This document shows positions 30,546 to 40,621 of a stretch of 64,000 nucleotides of DNA, piece after piece. The DNA lies in assembly GCA_964532495.1 (NCBI GenBank), contig CAZHJZ010000003.1:3658-67657 (forward strand), in the 5' to 3' direction. The notes beneath the pieces were generated by a model. It did no database searches. It was not told where the DNA came from and saw only the letters and a program-made list of their open reading frames with translations. Within the stretch, counting starts at the first letter, position 1. Each line of letters opens with the position of its first letter. This DNA is from an uncultured Candidatus Saccharibacteria bacterium. Lineage in GTDB: Bacteria; Patescibacteriota; Minisyncoccia; Phycocordibacterales; UBA9973. The position numbers and the translations under genes were made by a program.

Positions 30546-32384
30546 TTACTTCCCTTCCACTTCCTCCAAATCCTGCTTTGCTTTTCGAATCGCAAGGATC
30601 TGTGAAGGATCGGATGTGACGATCTGTTCTTCTGTGTATGATGCAATGATCTTGATAGCTACGTGCTTGAGTCCGGCAAAGAAGATACCTTCTCCGACAC
30701 CTGATTCGAGGAGGAGATACTTTTCTTCGTCTGTTAGGTGGAACACTTTTTGAAGATTGTCGATCGAACTTGGTGATTGCTTGAGCAAGATCTGGATAGA
30801 TGAGTTGGAGACAATTGGCGGGCCGTACTGGCTTTTCATGAAGTCGTCGATATTTTGAGTGATAGTCGCAAGTCCGAGATAGTATTTACGTCCGCGTTTT
30901 GCAATACCGAACAAGAATGACGCTGTGTCTTCTGACTTCATCATGATCCACGCCTCGTCCACGACAAGAAGTCGCTTTTTGAGAGTCTTGCGAACAGCAG
31001 TCCAGATGTGGTGCGTGACGATATACATGGCAACTGGCTTCAAGTCTTCTTCCATGTCTCGGATCGAAAAGACAACAAGGCGCTTGTTGATGTCCACGTT
31101 TGTTGGCTGGTTCAAGAATGTTGACCATGAACCTTTGGTAAATTTCTGAAGACGCTGAAGAATGGATTCTGATCCGTCCATTCCGGCAATAACCATTTCA
31201 AAGTCTGAAAGAAGCGGCGGCTCGGAGTTTCCGAGGTCGCTATCTACAGTAATGTCTTTCAATGCGTATGTTTCAGTAATAGCGCGGTCAACGAGGGCGT
31301 CTTCTTCTGGAGTAAGTCCTCCAAGCATGATACGGAATAGTCCAACAAGTTCGATGACGTTTCGACGGATGACATCCCCTGCTGTTTCATCAGCCGTTGG
31401 CATTGGAAGGTCGAATGGGTTGATGTGGTGATCGGATGAAAGCGAAATATTGAAGTAGCGTCCGCCAACTGCTTCAGCGAGATATTCATATTCTCGTTCA
31501 GGGTCGATAACAATAACATCAGTATCGAACATGAGCGTACGAAGAATTTCGAGTTTTGTCGTAAATGATTTTCCCGAACCGGAAGTAGCGATGGTAACAG
31601 AGTTGTAGTTTTCGAGGGAGAATCGGTCAAAGATAATAAGACCGGAATTGTGACGGTTTACTCCGTACAAAATACCCTTATCTGACGTAAGATCGAATGA
31701 AACGAATGGGAACAAGCTTGAAAGCGGCTCGGAATTGAGCTTCTGGTGGATGTTCAGCATATCGTTTCCAATTGGAATAACGCTTTTGAACCCCTCTTCT
31801 TGCTGGAAAAGCGCCGGTTTTATATAGACCAATTTGGATTCAAGGATAGACTTGATCTCGTTCTCTGTTTTGAAAAGCTCCTGTTCGTTGTCTGCGTAGA
31901 TAGTAATATACAAACCGACGTCGAACATTTTTTGCTGAGCCTGCATCAAGCTGTTACGAAGACCTTCGAGGTCGTTCACAGCAGTATCGAGCATGGGATC
32001 TCGCACGAGGCCCTTGCCTTCGCGAACATTGATCTGGCTTTGCACTTCAGCTACCTTCTTTTGGAATTCTCGAAGAATCTTTTCTGTTTCTATAGGATGT
32101 ATGAAAATTGAAACATCGAAGATCTTGTCGAGGTTGATAACCGGAGAAAACCAGTTGTCGGTAAGGAAACGAGGATATGAAATAACGAAGAATGTTCGAG
32201 CAACCTTGTCTCCGAGGTTGATGGACTTCGGTTCTATTTTGAGAGCAGATGGTGCGATAATGTCGCGGAATTCAAGCGTTGCGGCTTCGTAAATTTCCGC
32301 AGGCAGAACTGGCAAAATACCGCTTGTCGTTTGAGATGACGATGCCGCCGACTTTTTTCCAAATAATGAATCGAGGAAGCTCAT
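30546..32384 (-). CDS. virB4: VirB4-family T4SS ATPase, C-terminal ATPase part (612 aa from MSFLD...)
   Basis: Walker A ATSGSGKSFTTK and Walker B LLVVDEAWIMM; overall TraE/TrsE/PrgJ-like. The track ORF extends 55 codons further upstream in this frame, overlapping the N-part ORF. Confidence 0.85.
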   Translation of the reverse strand: MSFLDSLFGKKSAASSSQTTSGILPVLPAEIYEAATLEFRDIIAPSALKIEPKSINLGDKVARTFFVISYPRFLTDNWFSPVINLDKIFDVSIFIHPIETEKILREFQKKVAEVQSQINVREGKGLVRDPMLDTAVNDLEGLRNSLMQAQQKMFDVGLYITIYADNEQELFKTENEIKSILESKLVYIKPALFQQEEGFKSVIPIGNDMLNIHQKLNSEPLSSLFPFVSFDLTSDKGILYGVNRHNSGLIIFDRFSLENYNSVTIATSGSGKSFTTKLEILRTLMFDTDVIVIDPEREYEYLAEAVGGRYFNISLSSDHHINPFDLPMPTADETAGDVIRRNVIELVGLFRIMLGGLTPEEDALVDRAITETYALKDITVDSDLGNSEPPLLSDFEMVIAGMDGSESILQRLQKFTKGSWSTFLNQPTNVDINKRLVVFSIRDMEEDLKPVAMYIVTHHIWTAVRKTLKKRLLVVDEAWIMMKSEDTASFLFGIAKRGRKYYLGLATITQNIDDFMKSQYGPPIVSNSSIQILLKQSPSSIDNLQKVFHLTDEEKYLLLESGVGEGIFFAGLKHVAIKIIASYTEEQIVTSDPSQILAIRKAKQDLEEVEGK

Positions 32385-32385
32385 A

Positions 32386-33027
32386 TTATTGCAATTTGAT
32401 GGAACGCGAGATGTCCCCTGGATTAAAGACCTTGTAATAAAGCTCAATGGCTTCTTCCGTGCCAACTTGTACTGAACGAACACCCACACGGGTAAGTCCT
32501 TGCTGTACGACTCCGATACGCTGGTCGAGCTGGGTGCGATGTTCTTCAAAGTCGATTACCGCATTGCTTTTTTTTGTGTCACTTGAAGACCGCATGCCTC
32601 CAAAAAGGGATTTGTTGATGGTTCCGGCTCCGAGAGGAGATGAGCTATACGGAACAACGACAATAAACTGCTTTGTCATGATTGCCACTTCATCTGTAAA
32701 GCTGCGGATAAAGTTGATGTATTCTCTGGTTTGGATTTTGAGAAGCGGTTCAAGCTGTTCCTTCATGCGGTTTTCAAGCAAGAGAATGTATGGGCGGATG
32801 TCGAGCTTTCGCGACTGGATAACTATTTGCACCGAAAAGTCGAGCGAGTTCAGGAAGTTTTGAAACTGCATGATGGTTCCCTGCTGCTCATCGGCAGACT
32901 TGAGGGAGAGGTTGACTGATGAGGCGATCAAAAGAGCGCGCATACTCCCATCATTCAAAATAATGATGCCGTCGCGCACTTCCTTGATCGGAACGAATTC
33001 TTGAGTTGCTTTTGCGTTCAGTGCCAT
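32386..33027 (-). CDS. virB4: VirB4-family N-terminal domain encoded as a separate 213-aa ORF
   Basis: KATQEFVPIKEVRDGIIILNDGSMRALLIASSVNLSLKSADEQ matches the conserved N-terminus of Gram-positive-type VirB4 (PrgJ/TrsE-like). The stop is followed by one nt and then the ATG of the ATPase part (TAAtATG). Confidence 0.75.
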   Translation of the reverse strand: MALNAKATQEFVPIKEVRDGIIILNDGSMRALLIASSVNLSLKSADEQQGTIMQFQNFLNSLDFSVQIVIQSRKLDIRPYILLLENRMKEQLEPLLKIQTREYINFIRSFTDEVAIMTKQFIVVVPYSSSPLGAGTINKSLFGGMRSSSDTKKSNAVIDFEEHRTQLDQRIGVVQQGLTRVGVRSVQVGTEEAIELYYKVFNPGDISRSIKLQ

Positions 33028-33039
33028 CTGATAAATAGT

Positions 33040-33079
33040 ATACCATACCCGAATTGCCGAAAGGCAATTCGGGTATGGT
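33040..33079 (-). promoter_or_regulatory. 18-bp perfect hairpin (taccatacccgaattgcc-gaaa-ggcaattcgggtatggt) overlapping extended -10 TGGTATACT, virB4-N ATG ~9 nt downstream
   Basis: Seen directly in sequence between the PrgI-like gene and the virB4-N start. Confidence 0.55.
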
Positions 33080-33118: not shown

Positions 33119-33544
33119 TTACTGTTTGTTCTTTTTTTCCATATCAAGCACATCCAAGCTCCAGGAAAGGTCTTTCAGCTTGGAATTAGAGAGTTTTGGA
33201 ACATAATTGAAGTTTGAAAGAGAAACATCGTCTTTCTTTTCCTCGTCCTCTTTTTTCTTTGCCTTTCTGTTCTGTTTCCAGATATAGAGCTTGGCGCCAA
33301 TATAGTAATTGAAAGCCGATTCCATGATGGCGATAAACGGACGGTTATTTACTTTATAGAATGTAAGTGCAAGCGCGAGAGGAGCTATAATAAGTATGAG
33401 AGGGACAGAAAAATAGATCGGCAAGAGTTTGTAGAGCGCAAATGATGCTCCTCCTCCGCCGACCAAATAGATAAATTGCTTGAACGTGAATGGTCCAAAG
33501 ATCTTGTCTTCCACATCAATAAATTGTGGGACTTGAAATTGCAT
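33119..33544 (-). CDS. PrgI-family / VirB3-like small T4SS membrane protein
   Basis: MQFQVPQFIDVEDKIFGPFTFKQFIYLVGGGGASFALYKLLP then a second TM helix. Matches the PrgI-family N-terminal pattern (V.P.DL..V.DK.F..LT.RQ....G) with two TM segments. Sits directly upstream of virB4. Confidence 0.55.
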   Translation of the reverse strand: MQFQVPQFIDVEDKIFGPFTFKQFIYLVGGGGASFALYKLLPIYFSVPLILIIAPLALALTFYKVNNRPFIAIMESAFNYYIGAKLYIWKQNRKAKKKEDEEKKDDVSLSNFNYVPKLSNSKLKDLSWSLDVLDMEKKNKQ

Positions 33545-34392: not shown

Positions 34393-37300
34393 TTAATGTC
34401 CTCCATGGCCATGGTCGCCGGCATCATGATGTCCTGCATCATGGCTTGCTGGAGCGCTTTCACCTAAGCCCTTAAACATGTCGAATAGTTTTGAGTTCGG
34501 AGCTTTGTACGTAGCGGTAAATTTGTGCGCATGCTGTTCTTTGTGGCTTGCCTGTTCTGCTACTTGCTCTGATTGTCCCTTAAAGTTTCCGCTCCAAGCT
34601 ACTTTTTGATCATTGAGCCCGCTTGATAATCCTCGAGCAAGTCCTTCGTTCAGAGCGTCAGCACCTTCAGTGAACATGACTCGGAACGCAGGCATTACCC
34701 CACCATCCATCGCGCCTTTGACCGCACCAACAACACTTCCAGCGATTCCTCCAGCGAGCACGCTTGCTCCACCAGTCAATCCAGCAGCAAACAATCCTGC
34801 GCCCGCACCCATTGCTCCGCCCGATGCTGCGCCGCTCGCCATTTGCTTGAAGCCGTCACGCACTGCTTGTAAGAGTTCGCGAGAAGTACGTTCGCTACCG
34901 CCACCCTCTGATTGGCTTTTAAGGAATTTGACGTAGTCTTTCTGGCGGACATTCTTTGTCTTTTCGATTTCCTTTTCGTTGTCTTTCTTTTGCTTCTCTG
35001 CTCCGCGTATACCGTTAAAGGTTTTGCCGCCGATCACTATAGGTGCCTTGTTCTTGAGCATATCGACTTGATCATTCGCCCCCTTCACACTACTATCAGC
35101 ATCTGCTTTTGCTTTTAATAAAGTCGCAGGAACTGACTTTGCTTTTGGATTTGCTTCCTTGTATGCCTTGATTGCTTCATTTGCTTCACTCTGTTTATTT
35201 TTTGCAACTTGTTGTTTGCTCTCCGCTTCTTCCAAATCTTCTTTAGGTTTCTTCAGTCCGTCATCAATATCTCCGTTATCATGTTCGAGATGGTGGATCT
35301 TCTCATCATTTTGTCCCAAGAGTTTCTTGAAGCTTTCTTCTTTTGCTGCCTTGCGGTCAACTCGTGCCTGCTGTCCTCCTGCTGTCATGTCAGTACCAAA
35401 CGACTTTGGAGCGATCAAGCCAGCACCCATATTCATATTTACGCCAGTCGCGCTTGAGAGTGCGTTTCCAAGACCAGTCTGGCGAAGATCGAAGCTTGAT
35501 TTTGAAAGCTTGTCGGCACGCTGCAATTTTGCTGCCGCATGCTGCTGTGCACGGAGGGCGTTTCTCTTTCCTTCTGCCGTATCGTCGATCGGGCCGAATT
35601 TGTTTCCATAGAGCTGGCTGAGTTTGGCGGTGTTACCAGACGCAGCATCTTTGAGATCCTGGTTCTGAAGAGTTTTCATAGCTGCTCCGCCGATGAACTT
35701 CGAGCCAAGAGCTGCTGCTCCGCCGGTTACCGCCATTGATGCCATACCTACTCCTGCTGAAACTATTCCAGCAAAGGCTGCACCAAACTGTCCAGCCATT
35801 TCTTCAGCGATTTTCTTGGCTGCCATGAGAAGTCCAATAACGATCATAGTTGGAAGCATGATCGCTACGAGGAATGATACGAAATTTCCGCCGGCGTCAG
35901 TAACCGCGCTCATTGTTGTACCAAGGAGTCCCCCATCATTTCCACCCACGAGGTAAACGACAAGATACAAGAAGAAGAAAAAGACAGGTGCATTGAAGCA
36001 GGCTTTCATGAAACCAGAAAGCCATGTGCTCCATCCGAGTTGCTTCAAATTGCTTTCAAGGCTTGGGACGATACTTGTCACGAATGCTAAAGGCGCAAAG
36101 ATCATTGAGAACCAGATTACGCCAATACGTCCCGCAAAGAAGGCCGCACACATAAAGAATATCCAAGCCAGAGCCATGTTGAGGATAAAGGCGATTAAAA
36201 GTACGAAGAATATGGTTCCAGTACCGACTGTGCCTGTCTGCTTAAGCTTAGCCAAGCTATCAGTGCTGAGGAGCTTTTGTGGCTGCACTCCGCCGACGAT
36301 AACAGCCGAGATGGACTGTTCTTTGACTCCTACTTCGCCAGTAGTTGTTGGAGGGTTTTTCTTGGCACAGTCCTCTCCTTCCTTACAGATATTCATCGCA
36401 TTATAGAAAACTCGCGAGAGAATGTTTGATGCATCGATCGTCACGCGGCAGAAGAATAAGCTGAAGTTGATCAAGAGTCCGATGAGAATAACCTGAGCAA
36501 CTATTTTTTTTGTATTTACGTGGTGAAGCGAAAGAACAAGTCCGAGCGCCGCATAGAGAAGTATGAATATGAAAAAGATATTGGCGATATCGCGAACCAA
36601 GCTCCAGCCGTTTTCAACGAATGAAGCGATGCCTGTACCGGCTGCTCCCTGTCCGTAGATCGTGCTTCCAAGGGAAACAGCGGCAAATGCGTCAAACAGT
36701 CGGCCTGTTGTCTGTGCAAGCCAGTATGATGTTGAGACAAAGATAGAGTTGAATGCTTCAGTGATGCACCCCCCGATATTAATTTTAAACCAAGGTGCAT
36801 CTCCATCCGTAGTAAAACAAGTGAGTTCCGCGCTAAAAGCGTTAGTGTTAGTAGCTGAAAAATCTGGAGTCTCAACGTAGCTGTCTTCTGCTTGCTTTGT
36901 AAGGTCTACGTTTGAGGCAGCAGCTTCTTCTGTTGTCTGCGTCATGATTTCAGTTACAGGACCGAGCGCGAGAAGGGGGCTGCCGATAGCATCTTCTTTA
37001 AGGAGAACTTGGAAATAATATCGGGTGTTTGGGGCAAGGCCAGTAATATGGATCGGCTTACTTGTGACAGGATTTTTTCCGAAGAAAGAATCTCGAGGAT
37101 TTACTTTCCAAAGGTATTGTCCGATGTTAGTGGCTGTAGTTGAGGCAAGAGTTGAGTTGAATGCCACTCCCTGTTTTGGAGCATAAGTGACAGGAGGTAG
37201 ATTTGGCTTTTCTACTACAATTGGATCAACGGCATAGCTATTAAAATTGCCTCCTACGATATCGAGCGTCGTGTTAGGAAAAGTCTTTTTTTCAGTTCCG

Positions 37301-37647
37301 ACCAAAAGAAAGACACCTTCCGTCATGCTATCTTCGTGTCTATTGTCGACAAGGATCTCGTCCCAAGCTCCCGAGCTGTCACCCATATCGAAATAGTTCT
37401 CTATAGAACCATTGTCTTGGGCTACTGCGCCAGTAAACCGTATAGTGACATCAAGCAAGACGCTCTTGTCATCCTTTCCTTTTTCAGCAAGAGTTGCAGC
37501 CGTAAGTTTTCGGAAATAGCCAGGGCCTGATGTCATTGAGAACGTGCCTTCAAAAGACGCTTCAGCTTTTTTTAGTCCGCCCCACGGAAAAAGCATACTG
37601 GCGAGTATGACGAAGGTCGCTATAAGTGCGCTTACTTTCTTCCGCAT
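34393..37647 (-). CDS. VirB6/TrbL-like polytopic membrane protein (1084 aa) with N-terminal extracellular domain and C-terminal Gly-rich and His-rich tail
   Basis: Signal peptide. After ~330 aa there are >=8 hydrophobic helices separated by short loops (IANIFFIFILLYAALGLVL, ILIGLLINFSLFF, IFFVLLIAFILNMALAWIFFMCAAFFAGRIGVIWFSMIFAPLAF, VFFFFLYLVVYLVGG, LVAIMLPTMIVIGLLMA...), the hallmark of TrbL/VirB6 proteins. Long charged C-terminal region ends in HDAGHHDAGDHGHGGH. Confidence 0.6.
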   Translation of the reverse strand: MRKKVSALIATFVILASMLFPWGGLKKAEASFEGTFSMTSGPGYFRKLTAATLAEKGKDDKSVLLDVTIRFTGAVAQDNGSIENYFDMGDSSGAWDEILVDNRHEDSMTEGVFLLVGTEKKTFPNTTLDIVGGNFNSYAVDPIVVEKPNLPPVTYAPKQGVAFNSTLASTTATNIGQYLWKVNPRDSFFGKNPVTSKPIHITGLAPNTRYYFQVLLKEDAIGSPLLALGPVTEIMTQTTEEAAASNVDLTKQAEDSYVETPDFSATNTNAFSAELTCFTTDGDAPWFKINIGGCITEAFNSIFVSTSYWLAQTTGRLFDAFAAVSLGSTIYGQGAAGTGIASFVENGWSLVRDIANIFFIFILLYAALGLVLSLHHVNTKKIVAQVILIGLLINFSLFFCRVTIDASNILSRVFYNAMNICKEGEDCAKKNPPTTTGEVGVKEQSISAVIVGGVQPQKLLSTDSLAKLKQTGTVGTGTIFFVLLIAFILNMALAWIFFMCAAFFAGRIGVIWFSMIFAPLAFVTSIVPSLESNLKQLGWSTWLSGFMKACFNAPVFFFFLYLVVYLVGGNDGGLLGTTMSAVTDAGGNFVSFLVAIMLPTMIVIGLLMAAKKIAEEMAGQFGAAFAGIVSAGVGMASMAVTGGAAALGSKFIGGAAMKTLQNQDLKDAASGNTAKLSQLYGNKFGPIDDTAEGKRNALRAQQHAAAKLQRADKLSKSSFDLRQTGLGNALSSATGVNMNMGAGLIAPKSFGTDMTAGGQQARVDRKAAKEESFKKLLGQNDEKIHHLEHDNGDIDDGLKKPKEDLEEAESKQQVAKNKQSEANEAIKAYKEANPKAKSVPATLLKAKADADSSVKGANDQVDMLKNKAPIVIGGKTFNGIRGAEKQKKDNEKEIEKTKNVRQKDYVKFLKSQSEGGGSERTSRELLQAVRDGFKQMASGAASGGAMGAGAGLFAAGLTGGASVLAGGIAGSVVGAVKGAMDGGVMPAFRVMFTEGADALNEGLARGLSSGLNDQKVAWSGNFKGQSEQVAEQASHKEQHAHKFTATYKAPNSKLFDMFKGLGESAPASHDAGHHDAGDHGHGGH

Positions 37648-37750: not shown

Positions 37751-40621
37751 TTAGAACGCTCCCATCGTGTAGTCCTTTACACTTGAGTCGTAAAAGTTCT
37801 TACAATTAAGGTCGATCTTTGGTCGTCGGAACAATGAATCCCAATGACTTCGCTGTGGCAGTGTCTGAACATCGTACTTGTCGAGGATAGCCTGACAATA
37901 GAACAATCGTTCACTTGTCTGGTCAGCATTAACAACGGTATCTGAGCTATCTTCAAACGAATCAACAATATTTAGGGCTTGTCGCAATCTCTCGGTTCCC
38001 GTAGAGTTTGTGTCCCAACCCTCGCCAAGATCAGAGATCGGCGTAGTTGCCGTTACGATGGCATAGAGTATCGTCATTTGCTGATCACTCAGTGCCCCGT
38101 AAATACTTCTATCGTCTTCACTGAGGTTTCCGGAGAACCATGGATCTGCCGCAAGCGTAGTCACCATGTCCGCTCGACTAAGGTTTGATGGCAGCTGAAC
38201 CTGGTTGAAGCCGCTTGATGTGTACTGAAGATCGTCGATTGTTCCTGTGCCATACGGGCTGATATACATTTCCTTGGGCGTTCGTGGATTTGTAATAGTT
38301 GGGATACCGAACAGCGCTAATACTACTTGTCGAGCAATGTTTGTCTTATCAGCCGTATATGAAGTGATGATAAAACCGTGCTGATTGATGGCGTCAATGA
38401 TGTTTGCTGGGAGTGTTGCAGGGTTTACCTTCTCAACAATGGTTGGAGAATTACCCATCTGCTGGATGAATTTGTTGTTATATCCTCCGAATACAACATG
38501 GTAGATATTCTGGGATCGGTAGATTTCTCGCTCGTCCAAAATTGTGTTGATCATAAGGCCGATGTTGTCATACTGGGCTTTTACTTGCTCGTACGTTGCC
38601 TGAGCTTGCGAGATCGTTGCGGCGTTTGGAAGATCATCCATAAGCAATGCGTACGCTTTAAGTGCTCCCTTCATGATCTGATTGCCGGTTTCTGTTACAT
38701 AGTCAAATGGATTGAAATGGGCATTGCTTGGATCAGCGAGGATTGTCTGCCACTTTGTTGGATAGTTGAGCATGTGTGCAGGCGAGACTGTTTCGTTAGG
38801 ATGGTCAGCAAGGAATTCATCCAAGCTGTTATCTGGTTCTGGGTTATATGTTACATCCGCTGTGTGGTTTTTGAGGACATCGTCGAGTCGGCTTTTTACC
38901 GACTTCAAGCGAGCAAGTGTGGCAAGCGAAGTAGTGTAATTGTCTACGAATTCACCTTGTTTTACGCTGTATGCCACGCCATTTTGAACCATTGATGCAG
39001 CATCATTGTATGAAGGAAGGTTTGAAGTCAGCAGCTGAATTTCAATATCGTTTGGAATTGCTCCGGAGAAATTTTGAAGGTCTTCTGCGATTGCTTCAGC
39101 TTCTTTTTTGTATTTCTTGATGGATCGAGATACTGCGCGCTGGCTCCATACGTTCACTGCCGTTTGCAATCTTTCTACGATACGCTGTTTCCATCCATAT
39201 TTAGGTCCAGGAAGAGCATAGTCGAGCGTTCGAACCATGCTTGCAAAACTCTCTTGTCGGACAGTAGTACCGTCAGGGTTTTGCTGGCTTATGCCTCGCA
39301 TCAAGTCGAGCACTCTCTTGTATGCATCAACCTGCGCCTGCGCCTGTTCGATCAAAGTTAGCTTGATCTGATTGCCGCTAGCATCCGTAATGCCGATGTC
39401 TTGTCCTGTATAGAACAGTTCTTTAAGGTTGAGGTTTATGTCTGCTGCAGTTGTCCAGTTGCTAGGATCATTGCTGCTTTGTGAGTTGCTTGTAGCAGCC
39501 AATGATTGGCCATCGTATGTCCAGACAGGGCCTGGGCCTTTTGTTTTAGAAATTGCAGTAGAGAGAGCAGACAAGCCTTTGTCCAAAAGCTTTGTTGTTA
39601 ATGCGTTTACGATAGCTGAAATACTGTTTCCGAGAGCCGCGCCAAGTTCTGTTTGTGAGAATTTTGATCCCAAGGCTCGGTTGATTTGTGACTGAACCAC
39701 TGAACCCGGACTGACTGTTTTCCAAGTGATACAATCTGCTTCTGATTTTGCTCCGCCAAGGAAAAAAGTTTTGGCATTAGCTTGGCCTTGTTGTTGTTTG
39801 GTTGGAAGAGGAGGTGAATATCCGGCACCTTGCTGGCTTTGTTCCTGCGGTCCAACCTGTGGAGATGATCGGTATGCGACACAGGTTCTTTGGTTCAAGA
39901 ATCCTTGGCCATAATTGAGTTGCTGTTGAACAAGCTGCTGGCCTTTTGCAACAGTGTTTGCTGCCTTATTTGCTCCGACAAACAAAGCACCGTAGACATT
40001 GTTTGCTGGGTTTGAGTTAAATGCTTCATATCCAGCCCATCCGCCCACATTGAAATTGTTCTGGAATTTATTAGCTTCTTGTCCAAGAATATCTCCAAGC
40101 GTGTATCTCATTTTCTGTGCGATGTCTCCATTTTGGTTTCGGTAGCTCCAGATAAGAGCCTGTGAGATTTCTCGGCCATACGGGAATTTGCTTGCATTGT
40201 AACCGATCGTATCGATCAAGTTCTCGAGTTGAGCGTTTCCAATATTTTTGAAAAATGATTCAGGATTCTGAACGAACTGTGGCGATCCTTTGAATCCCCC
40301 GTTGATCCAGTTCACTGTTGCTTCAGTGAGTTTGTTGAGAAGAACTTTGGCAATTGCCTTCAAGATCATGCCGAGTAATTTTGCAATCCATTGAAGAACT
40401 GTTTTTGCAGTAGTAGTTGTGTTGGTTCCTGCATCTACGCCGATTCCGGCAGAAGCCAAAAAGTCCGCAACAGGGAAACCAGTCGCCTCCGCCTTTTGTA
40501 TTCGAGGGATAGGGGCGGTGAGCTGCAATGAGACCGGAGTCAGTACCACTCCGCCAAGTACGAATATTCCGAGGAGAGTTGCTGCGATCGTTTTGTTTTT
40601 TGCGTATTTATACATGATCAA
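37751..40621 (-). CDS. large secreted protein (956 aa), unknown function, T4SS-like locus
   Basis: N-terminal TM/signal (IAATLLGIFVLGGVVL). Polar, Asn/Gln/Thr-rich, no recognisable catalytic motif. Confidence 0.55.
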   Translation of the reverse strand: MIMYKYAKNKTIAATLLGIFVLGGVVLTPVSLQLTAPIPRIQKAEATGFPVADFLASAGIGVDAGTNTTTTAKTVLQWIAKLLGMILKAIAKVLLNKLTEATVNWINGGFKGSPQFVQNPESFFKNIGNAQLENLIDTIGYNASKFPYGREISQALIWSYRNQNGDIAQKMRYTLGDILGQEANKFQNNFNVGGWAGYEAFNSNPANNVYGALFVGANKAANTVAKGQQLVQQQLNYGQGFLNQRTCVAYRSSPQVGPQEQSQQGAGYSPPLPTKQQQGQANAKTFFLGGAKSEADCITWKTVSPGSVVQSQINRALGSKFSQTELGAALGNSISAIVNALTTKLLDKGLSALSTAISKTKGPGPVWTYDGQSLAATSNSQSSNDPSNWTTAADINLNLKELFYTGQDIGITDASGNQIKLTLIEQAQAQVDAYKRVLDLMRGISQQNPDGTTVRQESFASMVRTLDYALPGPKYGWKQRIVERLQTAVNVWSQRAVSRSIKKYKKEAEAIAEDLQNFSGAIPNDIEIQLLTSNLPSYNDAASMVQNGVAYSVKQGEFVDNYTTSLATLARLKSVKSRLDDVLKNHTADVTYNPEPDNSLDEFLADHPNETVSPAHMLNYPTKWQTILADPSNAHFNPFDYVTETGNQIMKGALKAYALLMDDLPNAATISQAQATYEQVKAQYDNIGLMINTILDEREIYRSQNIYHVVFGGYNNKFIQQMGNSPTIVEKVNPATLPANIIDAINQHGFIITSYTADKTNIARQVVLALFGIPTITNPRTPKEMYISPYGTGTIDDLQYTSSGFNQVQLPSNLSRADMVTTLAADPWFSGNLSEDDRSIYGALSDQQMTILYAIVTATTPISDLGEGWDTNSTGTERLRQALNIVDSFEDSSDTVVNADQTSERLFYCQAILDKYDVQTLPQRSHWDSLFRRPKIDLNCKNFYDSSVKDYTMGAF

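What the first reader, a model, noticed from the sequence alone, without database searches (positions are those of the whole stretch)
32382..33027. VirB4 encoded as two adjacent ORFs joined by TAAtATG: split gene or frameshift
The conserved VirB4 N-terminal domain (213 aa, with the VPIKEVRDGIIILNDGSMRALL motif) ends at a TAA. One nucleotide later an ATG opens the 612-aa ATPase part (MSFLD...). The ATPase frame is also open for 55 codons upstream, overlapping the end of the N-part. Intact VirB4 proteins of the PrgJ/TrsE type carry both parts in one ~800-aa chain. This is therefore either a naturally split virB4 with translational coupling, a recent frameshift (pseudogenisation), or a programmed or assembly-derived single-nt indel.
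Basis: seen in the sequence. Interest (0 to 1): 0.6.

Follow-up and report, generated by a model that had tools for sequence, protein, structure and literature searches.

The report
Naturally split VirB4: TrsD plus ATPase
The two adjacent reading frames are not a broken gene: they are the normal, conserved and already published two-gene form (TrsD plus VirB4 ATPase) of the type IV secretion motor of Patescibacteria (CPR bacteria), so the finding is real but ordinary.

Summary
A 213-aa ORF (33027..32386) ends in TAA. One base later an ATG (32384) opens a 612-aa VirB4-type ATPase (to 30546). The ATPase frame is open 55-57 codons upstream.

The frameshift, pseudogene and assembly-error readings are refuted:
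- All 80 related Paceibacterota/Nomurabacteria loci carry the same split. Spacers run from 1 to 283 nt and use all three relative frames.
- The 120 closest homologues of each half are all stand-alone proteins.
- Homology to rare fused relatives runs in the N frame to within five residues of the stop. It resumes 40 residues into the ATPase ORF, and the overlap read in the ATPase frame matches nothing.
- An independent metagenome contig (95.7% nt identity) has the same TAATATG. Its 84 substitutions in the ATPase gene are all synonymous.
- The upstream open frame is chance: median 5 codons in relatives, and such runs are common in this 44.6% GC genome.

The small protein is a TrsD-type protein (Pfam PF26593 TraC-like), a detached VirB4 N-terminal module. 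Staphylococcal pSK41 has the same prgI/trsC, trsD, trsE order. Quiñonero-Coronel et al. 2025 (PMC12102498) already report TrsD next to virB4 across Patescibacteria. Translational coupling at TAAtATG is plausible here (no Shine-Dalgarno motifs) but is not conserved.

The parts
32386..33027 (-). trsD-like gene (213 aa): a stand-alone homologue of the N-terminal ~210 residues of fused VirB4/TraC ATPases (Pfam PF26593 TraC-like)
   Evidence: ORF. An identical protein, P0001, and all 120 best homologues are 188-229 aa stand-alone proteins carrying PF26593. NCBIfam gives N-terminal matches to VirB4_plasma 102-219/894 (5e-9), TrsD/TraD 15-142/201 (1e-4) and CD1110 2-87/752. It aligns to residues 1-214 of fused P0320 (2e-46). 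For the AF2 model (pLDDT 78.8), the top 14 PDB hits are all TrwK/VirB4 of R388.
32382..32388 (-). Gene junction TAAtATG: stop of trsD, one spacer base, start of the ATPase gene
   Evidence: The identical junction is present in an independent JGI contig of a 95.7%-identical strain. A 1-nt spacer occurs in 13 of the 79 related loci tabulated (14 of 80 junctions with the window); other loci have 2-283 nt.
30546..32384 (-). virB4/trsE-type ATPase gene (612 aa): a ~40-aa non-conserved leader, the second half of the VirB4 N-terminal region, then the P-loop motor (Walker A GSGKS at residues 268-272)
   Evidence: Pfam PF19044, PF12846, PF01935. NCBIfam conju_CD1110 389.6 bits against a cutoff of 325, covering profile positions 182-732/752. 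Residues 41-604 match 232-796 of fused P0320 at 54% identity. Residues 50-579 are colinear with pSK41 TrsE 44-617 (1e-31). The 120 best homologues are 596-696 aa stand-alone proteins.
32385..32549 (-). 55-codon stretch where the ATPase frame happens to be open over the 3' end of trsD: not coding in that frame
   Evidence: Translated in the ATPase frame it has no colinear match to fused relatives (E>=0.22). In the N frame it matches colinearly (1.6e-9 and 4.8e-7). Both substitutions seen in strain L087 are synonymous in the N frame and non-synonymous in the ATPase frame. The open stretch is not conserved in relatives (median 5 codons) and is expected by chance.
33119..33544 (-). prgI/virB3-like gene (141 aa) immediately upstream. 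It is the likely membrane anchor partner of the TrsD/VirB4 pair.
   Evidence: Pfam PF12666 PrgI, 1.5e-10. The same prgI then trsD/virB4 order is seen in CPR loci L081 and L088, in C. perfringens pJFP838A and, as trsC-trsD-trsE, in pSK41.
33042..33079 (-). 17-bp perfect hairpin in the 91-nt prgI-trsD spacer. It could be a partial terminator, an attenuator or an mRNA-stabilising stem. Its function was not tested.
   Evidence: Terminator-like scan. RNA fold gives -38.5 kcal/mol, z = -5.6, and 0 of 200 shuffles fold as well.

Best explanation
These are two separate, functional, co-oriented genes of a chromosomal Patescibacteria (Paceibacterota/Nomurabacteria-type) type IV secretion locus. The first is a trsD-type gene that encodes the detached N-terminal module of VirB4. 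The second is a trsE/virB4-type gene that encodes the rest of the N-terminal region plus the P-loop motor.

Shown: the split falls in a non-conserved linker, and nothing present in fused VirB4s is missing. Shown: the split is the standard state of this lineage and also occurs in pGO1/pSK41-type Gram-positive conjugation systems.

Inferred from R388 VirB4 structures: TrsD binds the ATPase non-covalently and supplies the surface that contacts the VirB3/PrgI membrane anchor and mediates VirB4 dimer and ring assembly at the membrane, so that the two chains together act as one VirB4.

Inferred: in this genome the two genes are co-transcribed. Because the lineage lacks Shine-Dalgarno motifs and the stop and start are 1 nt apart, the ATPase ORF is probably translated by ribosomes that terminate at the trsD TAA and re-initiate at the adjacent ATG, which would give roughly matched amounts of both chains.
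For: - Conservation of the split. All 80 related loci from distinct species genomes have a stop-terminated N-part ORF followed by an ATPase ORF with its own ATG. Among the 80 junctions tabulated (79 related loci plus the window), spacers are 1 nt (x14), 4 nt (x12), 2, 3, 5 or 6 nt (x14) and up to 283 nt, with relative frames +1:+2:0 = 40:20:20. The 80th locus, L061, was checked by hand.
- Homologue lengths. The 120 best homologues of each half are stand-alone proteins (188-229 aa and 596-696 aa). Of the 150 best 50%-identity cluster representatives, 148 are short and 2 are fused.
- Nothing is missing. In fused P0320, residues 1-214 match the N-part and residues 232-796 match ATPase residues 41-604.
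- Frame test. The overlap matches fused relatives only in the N frame.
- Selection. 52 columns are invariant across 65 N-part homologues. In strain L087 all 84 nt differences in the ATPase gene are synonymous.
- Not an assembly error. The independent JGI contig has the same junction and no gaps over 1997 nt.
- VirB4 N-terminal identity. This rests on the NCBIfam positions and on Foldseek, whose top 14 hits are all TrwK/VirB4.
- Known precedent. pSK41 has trsC (135 aa), trsD (227 aa) and trsE (672 aa), and TrsE is colinear with the window ATPase from its N-terminus.
- Literature. PMC12102498 reports 2,272 TrsD homologues in Patescibacteria, 1,664 of them associated with VirB4. The TrsD homologue is essential in Ca. 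Southlakia epibionticum ML1.
- NTD roles. The VirB4 N-terminal domains connect the dimer protomers and contact VirB3 and VirB8 (PMC12857230).
- No Shine-Dalgarno use. SD-like motifs occur upstream of 0 of 31 window genes and 1 of 80 junctions, against 8.6% of random 15-mers.
Against: [quoted passage not shown]
- Sequence similarity to the prototype pSK41 TrsD is very weak: hhalign E = 0.025 over 43 columns, and NCBIfam NF041427 gives 22 bits against a 200-bit cutoff.
- Foldseek TM-scores to VirB4 are modest (0.40-0.51) with E of 3e-3 to 4e-2.
- Translational coupling cannot be a general requirement. Half of the 80 junctions tabulated have spacers longer than 6 nt, some carrying inserted palindromic elements.
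Confidence: 0.9

Rival explanations
1. A recent frameshift has cut a formerly fused ~825-aa virB4 in two, leaving it a pseudogene or on the way to decay.
For: Fused relatives do exist in some CPR genomes (P0320 at 797 aa, P0362 at 898 aa). In the window the ATPase frame is open for 55-57 codons over the end of the N-part.
Against: The split is present in all 80 related species loci, with different spacers and frames. Each half has thousands of stand-alone homologues. Homology stays in the N frame to residue 208 of 213, and the alternative frame matches nothing. All 84 substitutions in the ATPase gene of a sister strain are synonymous. The ATPase ORF starts at the conserved M-[GSAD]-[IFL]-[FL]-[DS] start shared by relatives.
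Confidence: 0.01
2. A sequencing or assembly single-nucleotide indel, for example in a homopolymer, artificially splits one gene.
For: An A8 run lies nearby at 32575..32568. The source is evidently a metagenome-assembled genome.
Against: The A8 run lies upstream of an ATPase-frame stop (TAA 32558..32556), so an indel there could not join the frames. No homopolymer of 5 or more bases lies between 32555 and 32386. An independently assembled JGI contig from another sample, at 95.7% identity, shows the same TAATATG with zero gaps. The same architecture is seen in 80 other assemblies.
Confidence: 0.01
3. Programmed recoding (a +1 frameshift in the overlap) produces a fused full-length VirB4 in addition to the two separate chains.
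For: The ATPase ORF is in the +1 frame relative to trsD here and at 40 of the 80 junctions tabulated (the window included). The frames overlap open for 55 codons in the window.
Against: The open overlap is not conserved: the median is 5 codons, and many relatives have in-frame stops or long spacers. A fusion made by shifting inside the overlap would replace conserved C-terminal residues of TrsD, which align to fused relatives, with unconserved alternative-frame sequence. No slippery homopolymer lies in the overlap. Relative frames are mixed at 40:20:20.
Confidence: 0.02
4. The small protein is not a functional part of VirB4. It is an independent T4SS accessory factor that shares only distant ancestry with the VirB4 N-terminus and has a different role, for example as a regulator or assembly chaperone.
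For: [quoted passage not shown] Some homologues carry long extra C-terminal extensions, reaching 300-443 aa. In Gracilibacteria, TrsD homologues are reported not to be associated with virB4.
Against: Within the same clade, fused proteins have the TrsD module (about 40% identical) covalently attached in the expected position with only a ~17-residue linker. Adjacency to the ATPase gene is near-universal. The split ATPases lack this module, while fused CD1110-type VirB4s have it.
Confidence: 0.06

Closest known systems
TrsD + VirB4 of the Patescibacteria T4SS (Quiñonero-Coronel et al. 2025, Microb Genom, PMC12102498; essential genes in Ca. Southlakia epibionticum ML1, Wang et al. 2023 as cited there)
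   Same: It has the same lineage (relatives are Paceibacterota/Nomurabacteria MAGs) and the same adjacent gene pair. The same locus composition is present: PrgI/VirB3-like, TrsD, VirB4, a large polytopic membrane protein and a pilin-like protein. The small protein is described as a remote homologue of the VirB4 N-terminus.
   Different: Nothing material differs. This window is simply one more instance. The junction survey (spacers and frames) and the rare fused CPR forms found here are details I did not see in the passages of that paper that I read.
TrsC-TrsD-TrsE of staphylococcal conjugative plasmids pSK41/pGO1 (MPF_FATA, pGO1 subclass); NCBIfam NF041427 TrsD/TraD family
   Same: The gene order and sizes are the same: 135/227/672 aa in pSK41 against 141/213/612 aa here. 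The ATPases are colinear from their N-termini, so the split point is equivalent. The TrsD profile matches the N-part colinearly.
   Different: The two are very divergent. The ATPases share 22% identity, and the TrsD similarity is only marginal (22 bits against a 200-bit cutoff; hhalign E = 0.025). pSK41 is a conjugative plasmid with a relaxase and a coupling protein. Here the locus is chromosomal, next to housekeeping genes (rsmA/ksgA, uvrD-type helicase), and in Patescibacteria it is thought to serve the epibiotic lifestyle rather than plasmid transfer.
Fused VirB4 ATPases of monoderm systems (CD1110 family NF045971; Mbov_0397 family NF045975; PrgJ-type) and R388 TrwK/VirB4
   Same: The N-part matches their N-terminal segment and the ATPase ORF matches the remainder. 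The ATPase ORF passes the CD1110 cutoff, 389.6 against 325 bits. The fold of the N-part resembles TrwK/VirB4.
   Different: In those proteins the two parts form one polypeptide. Here, and in the great majority of this clade, they are two polypeptides.
Split VirB4-like pairs on Bacillota megaplasmids and haloarchaeal plasmids
   Same: A small 'hypothetical protein' homologous to the N-part lies directly upstream of a VirB4, DUF87 or TraM-recognition ATPase gene. Examples are Pontibacillus (274 + 621 aa, with an 11-nt overlap), C. perfringens pJFP838A (PrgI + 312 + 641 aa) and Halobacterium hubeiense pSTJ001 (369 + 853 aa).
   Different: Identity is only 22-29%. The small proteins are longer, and in those records they are unannotated.

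Membership tests
Pfam PF26593 (TraC-like domain), the stand-alone N-terminal VirB4/TraC module | Significant match to the PF26593 profile | tested here: met
   The precomputed Pfam annotation PF26593.2 is on the 100%-identical database protein P0001 and on all 120 best homologues. The local Pfam copy returned no hit, presumably because it lacks this recent model, so the result rests on the precomputed annotation.
TrsD/TraD family conjugative transfer protein (NCBIfam NF041427) | Whole-protein score at or above the curated cutoff (200 bits) | tested here: not met
   The score is 22.2 bits, E = 1e-4, aligned colinearly (8-125 against 15-142/201). hhalign against pSK41 TrsD gives E = 0.025 over 43 columns. 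This makes it a remote homologue, not a member of the narrow staphylococcal/enterococcal family as NCBI defines it.
TrsD in the broad sense (MPF_FATA TrsD as used for Patescibacteria in PMC12102498) | Small protein (~200-230 aa) homologous to the VirB4 N-terminus, encoded immediately upstream of a virB4 gene that lacks that segment | tested here: met
   The protein is 213 aa. It matches the N-terminal positions of VirB4 profiles and residues 1-214 of fused P0320. It lies 1 nt upstream of the ATPase ORF. The ATPase ORF begins at CD1110 profile position 182. I did not run the CONJScan/MacSyFinder TrsD HMM used in the paper.
VirB4-like conjugal transfer ATPase, CD1110 family (NCBIfam NF045971), for the 612-aa ORF | Score at or above the curated cutoff (325 bits) | tested here: met
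   The score is 389.6 bits, E = 2.9e-116, covering profile positions 182-732 of 752. The first ~180 profile positions are absent from this chain; at least positions 2-87 are matched by the separate N-part ORF.
VirB4 family ATPase (general) | P-loop NTPase motor with Walker A and the TraG/AAA_10-type C-terminal domain | tested here: met
   PF19044 (3.8e-27), PF12846 and PF01935 all match. The Walker A sequence ATSGSGKSF is at residues 265-273, conserved with P0320, P0362 and TrsE.
VirB4 family ATPase (general) | N-terminal domain fold as in solved VirB4 (R388 TrwK) | tested here: inconclusive
Type IV secretion locus of Patescibacteria | Co-located VirB3/PrgI, VirB6-like polytopic membrane protein, pilin-like and cell-wall-related genes | tested here: inconclusive
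   PrgI matches clearly (PF12666, 1.5e-10). The T4SS_pilin match (5.6e-5, 23.6 bits) and the PG_binding_1 match (22.1 bits) are both just below their cutoffs. The 1084-aa protein has obvious hydrophobic segments but no Pfam hit.
Programmed ribosomal frameshift site | Conserved overlap with a slippery sequence, and homology continuing in the shifted frame | tested here: not met
   The overlap is not conserved (median 5 codons; frames 40:20:20). No slippery run lies in the overlap, and the alternative frame shows no homology.

The most novel reading that the evidence does not exclude
The most novel reading not excluded has three parts. First, the detached TrsD module is an ancient, homologous split point shared by Patescibacteria and pGO1-type Gram-positive conjugation systems. 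Second, the few fused CPR proteins (P0320, P0362) are secondary re-fusions. Third, separation lets the cell set TrsD:ATPase stoichiometry or assembly order independently. In SD-less genomes such as this one, that would work through termination-reinitiation at TAAnATG, gated by the strong hairpin between prgI and trsD.
Probability: 0.25. Interest if true: 0.3.

Novelty: already known. Interest (0 to 1): 0.12.

Why it matters
There is little new here. The practical value is for annotation: a VirB4 gene in CPR/Patescibacteria, and in pGO1-type monoderm systems, that appears to lack its first ~200 residues, with a small 'hypothetical' ORF abutting it, should not be flagged as a frameshift or pseudogene. 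The small ORF should be named TrsD-like (VirB4 N-terminal module). Biologically, the pair belongs to the T4SS that has been shown to be essential for epibiotic growth in a cultivated Patescibacterium. A naturally two-chain VirB4 could also be a convenient system for dissecting what the VirB4 N-terminal module does, but that opportunity is already evident from published work.

Tried and rejected
1. The local Pfam scan of the N-part gave no hit. The family (PF26593) appears only in precomputed annotations.
2. A sequence search of the PDB with the N-part gave no hit even at E <= 10, so a fold search was needed.
4. The look-up of encoding contigs found nothing on record for the exact N-part protein. 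The ATPase protein was used instead.
5. The Logan contig L086 is 100% identical to the window over 2977 nt. It probably comes from the same sample, so I did not count it as independent. Only the 95.7%-identical JGI contig L087 was used as independent support.
6. The A8 homopolymer as a source of a sequencing indel was considered and rejected, because an ATPase-frame stop lies between it and the junction.
7. A Shine-Dalgarno site inside the 3' end of trsD was considered and rejected. No such motif occurs here, at the equivalent junctions (1 of 80), or upstream of 31 other genes in the window.
8. I searched the window for the palindromic CCCGTTAGA...TCTAACGGG elements that occupy the trsD-virB4 spacer in some relatives. 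None was found.
9. A direct profile comparison with pSK41 TrsD was only marginal, so I do not claim membership of the narrow NCBIfam TrsD/TraD family.
Full report
**1. Observation**

The features lie on the minus strand. A 213-aa ATG ORF (33027..32386; MALNAKATQEFVPIKEVRDGIIILNDGSMRALL...) ends in TAA at 32388..32386. One base later the ATG at 32384..32382 opens a 612-aa ORF (MSFLDSLFGKK...) that ends at 30546, so the minus-strand junction reads caaTAAtATGagc.

**2. What the two ORFs are**

- The 612-aa ORF is a VirB4-type motor. It matches PF19044 (P-loop_TraG, 3.8e-27), PF12846 and PF01935.
- It passes NCBIfam's curated cutoff for 'VirB4-like conjugal transfer ATPase, CD1110 family' (389.6 against 325 bits), but covers only profile positions 182-732 of 752.
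- The 213-aa ORF matches the N-terminal positions of fused VirB4 profiles: VirB4_plasma 102-219/894 (5.4e-9) and CD1110 2-87/752. It also matches the stand-alone TrsD/TraD profile 15-142/201 (1e-4).
- The identical database protein and all close homologues carry Pfam PF26593, whose name is 'TraC-like'.
- An AlphaFold2 model of the 213-aa protein (65-sequence alignment, mean pLDDT 78.8) finds TrwK/VirB4 chains of the R388 T4SS as its top 14 PDB matches by Foldseek. Probabilities are 0.96-1.00, but TM-scores are only 0.40-0.51.
- The two ORFs together therefore account for a complete VirB4.

**3. Frameshift, pseudogene or natural split?**

(a) *Homologue lengths.* The 120 best database homologues of the N-part are stand-alone proteins of 188-229 aa. 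The 120 best homologues of the ATPase part are 596-696 aa, mostly 608-621 aa. Both sets come from Paceibacterota, Nomurabacteria and other Patescibacteria MAGs. In an exhaustive HMMER search of 1.84 billion cluster representatives, 2,074 proteins match the N-part. Of the best 150, 148 are short (116-443 aa) and two are fused (797 and 898 aa).

(b) *Related loci.* A scan of species-representative genomes found 451 relatives, and 80 loci were fetched.
- In every one the N-part ORF ends in a stop and the ATPase ORF begins at its own ATG with the conserved start M-[GSAD]-[IFL]-[FL]-[DS].
- Among the 80 junctions tabulated (79 related loci plus the window), the spacer is 1 nt in 14 (the window and 13 related loci), 4 nt in 12, 2, 3, 5 or 6 nt in 14 and 9-283 nt in the remaining 40. 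The 80th locus, L061, has an 8-nt spacer.
- The frame of the ATPase ORF relative to the N-part ORF is +1, +2 and 0 in 40, 20 and 20 of these junctions.
- No single-nucleotide event can explain such a pattern.

ATPase residues 41-604 align to residues 232-796 (54% identity). The break therefore sits in a ~17-residue linker and nothing is missing. The last 57 residues of the N-part match the fused proteins colinearly (1.6e-9 and 4.8e-7). The same DNA translated in the ATPase frame gives only non-colinear noise (E >= 0.22).

(d) *Selection.* 52 columns are invariant across 65 N-part homologues that are 62-89% identical to the window protein. A JGI metagenome contig (L087), 95.7% identical in DNA with no gaps over 1997 nt, has the same TAATATG. 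All 84 of its nucleotide differences in the ATPase gene are synonymous. Its two differences inside the overlap are synonymous in the N frame and non-synonymous in the ATPase frame.

(e) *Homopolymers.* The only long run nearby (A8, 32575..32568) lies upstream of the ATPase-frame stop at 32558..32556, so an indel there could not join the frames. No run of 5 or more bases exists between 32555 and 32386.

(f) *The open overlap is chance.* In this 44.6% GC window, 8.2% of +1-frame stop-free runs inside long genes are at least 57 codons, and they hold about 30% of +1-frame codons. In the relatives, which look more AT-rich in the junction sequences, the equivalent stretch has a median of 5 codons.

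Together these results refute the recent-frameshift, assembly-error and programmed-recoding readings.

**4. Context**

The pair sits in a long minus-strand gene array. In order it contains:
- a 956-aa protein and a 1084-aa protein, the latter with many hydrophobic segments and neither with a Pfam hit;
- a 255-aa protein;
- PrgI/VirB3-like (33544..33119, PF12666, 1.5e-10);
- the TrsD-like gene and the VirB4 ATPase gene;
- a 341-aa protein;
- a 352-aa protein with a sub-threshold T4SS_pilin match;
- a 541-aa protein with a sub-threshold peptidoglycan-binding match.

Housekeeping genes follow upstream (rRNA adenine dimethylase, UvrD-type helicase), so the locus is chromosomal. A 17-bp perfect hairpin (33079..33042; -38.5 kcal/mol, z = -5.6) lies in the 91-nt prgI-trsD spacer.

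**5. Mechanism**

*Shown.* There are two separate genes. The small one equals the N-terminal ~210 residues of fused VirB4s. The large one carries the remaining N-terminal region and the P-loop motor.

*Inferred.* In R388 the VirB4 N-terminal domains connect the protomers of each dimer, embed at the inner membrane and contact VirB3 and VirB8 (review PMC12857230). TrsD most likely docks non-covalently on the ATPase and provides the PrgI/VirB3-binding and oligomerisation surface.

*Expression, also inferred.* No Shine-Dalgarno-like motif precedes the ATPase ATG here, at 79 of the 80 junctions tabulated, or at any of 31 long genes in the window (0/31, against 8.6% of random 15-mers). With a 1-nt spacer, termination-reinitiation is the simplest route to translating the ATPase ORF. 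Coupling cannot be an obligatory family feature, however, because half of the 80 junctions tabulated have spacers longer than 6 nt.

**6. Comparison with what is known**

- The arrangement is published. Quiñonero-Coronel et al. [quoted passage not shown] They found 2,272 homologues, 1,664 of them associated with virB4. The homologue in Ca. Southlakia epibionticum ML1 is listed as essential. [quoted passage not shown]
- The prototype is pGO1/pSK41. In pSK41 the order is trsC (135 aa), trsD (227 aa, annotated TrsD/TraD family), trsE (672 aa). The window ATPase (residues 50-579) is colinear with TrsE 44-617 (1e-31), so the split point is equivalent.
- Similarity of the N-part to staphylococcal TrsD itself is marginal. 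I therefore call it TrsD-like in the broad sense, not a member of NCBIfam NF041427.
- The same split also occurs, unannotated, on Bacillota megaplasmids and a Halobacterium plasmid.
- Rare fused forms exist within CPR, next to prgI.

**7. Verdict**

The feature is an already-known, lineage-typical gene pair. Interest is low. The main value is to stop such pairs from being mis-flagged as frameshifted pseudogenes.

Noticed in passing
window 33042-33079 (minus strand), in the 91-nt spacer between prgI (33119..33544) and trsD (32386..33027): A perfect 17-bp GC-containing hairpin (ACCATACCCGAATTGCC-TTTC-GGCAATTCGGGTATGGT; -38.5 kcal/mol, z = -5.6) is followed by a weak T-rich tail. It could be a partial terminator or an mRNA-stabilising stem that sets the PrgI to TrsD/VirB4 expression ratio. 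Conservation in relatives was not checked.
   Followed up: partly
whole window (31 long ORFs) and loci L001-L080 at the trsD-virB4 junction: Shine-Dalgarno-like motifs (GGAG/GAGG/AGGA) are absent upstream of the first ATG of 0/31 long ORFs, against 8.6% of random 15-mers, and of 1/80 ATPase starts. Several starts instead have TATAAT-like hexamers 8-15 nt upstream (for example ggggtataatccctttatatatATG). This suggests SD-independent translation, possibly from very short leaders, in this lineage.
   Followed up: partly
L028:4649-4931, L037:4637-4755, L046:4679-4799, L071 (near 4641), also L050, L057, L058, L074: In several related genomes the trsD-virB4 spacer and other intergenic sites hold inserts of ~100-280 nt. 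These are bounded by inverted termini TCCCGTTAGA(AGC)...(GCT)TCTAACGGG and look like MITEs. The 283-nt copy in L028 contains a small ORF (MFYYTYILKSKKDGKMYTGSTTDLRKRLMQHNKG...) resembling a GIY-YIG nuclease domain. None is present in the window.
   Followed up: partly
L016, L024, L029, L030, L036, L041, L044, L055, L056, L062 spacers: Other long trsD-virB4 spacers in relatives consist of short tandem or palindromic AT-rich words (such as 'ataaagtt', 'gcctagagcctaaaagctaaagcc', 'aaagctaaaaagctaaaaagct'). These are simple-repeat or hairpin-forming intergenic fillers of unknown role.
   Followed up: no
L061:2337-2700: In this Nomurabacteria MAG the ATPase gene downstream of an intact trsD appears to have an internal deletion or frameshift (...YPRFSKRKSPKFKV...) that removes about 35 conserved residues. 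It is either a genuine pseudogene or an assembly error in that genome.
   Followed up: no
L081 (GCA_964615945.1 contig CAZTUR010000004.1): In a CPR genome with a fused 797-aa VirB4, the prgI-virB4 pair lies about 2.4 kb from rnpA-yidC and dnaA-dnaN, i.e. next to the replication origin. This fits the published remark that Patescibacteria T4SS loci often sit near oriC. No dnaA was looked for in the window.
   Followed up: no
window 34393-37647 and 37751-40621 (minus strand): Two very large ORFs (1084 and 956 aa) upstream of prgI have no Pfam match. The 1084-aa protein has a signal-like N-terminus, a block of hydrophobic helices (a candidate VirB6-like channel), a long charged coiled-coil-like region and a His-rich C-terminus (...HDAGHHDAGDHGHGGH).
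   Followed up: no
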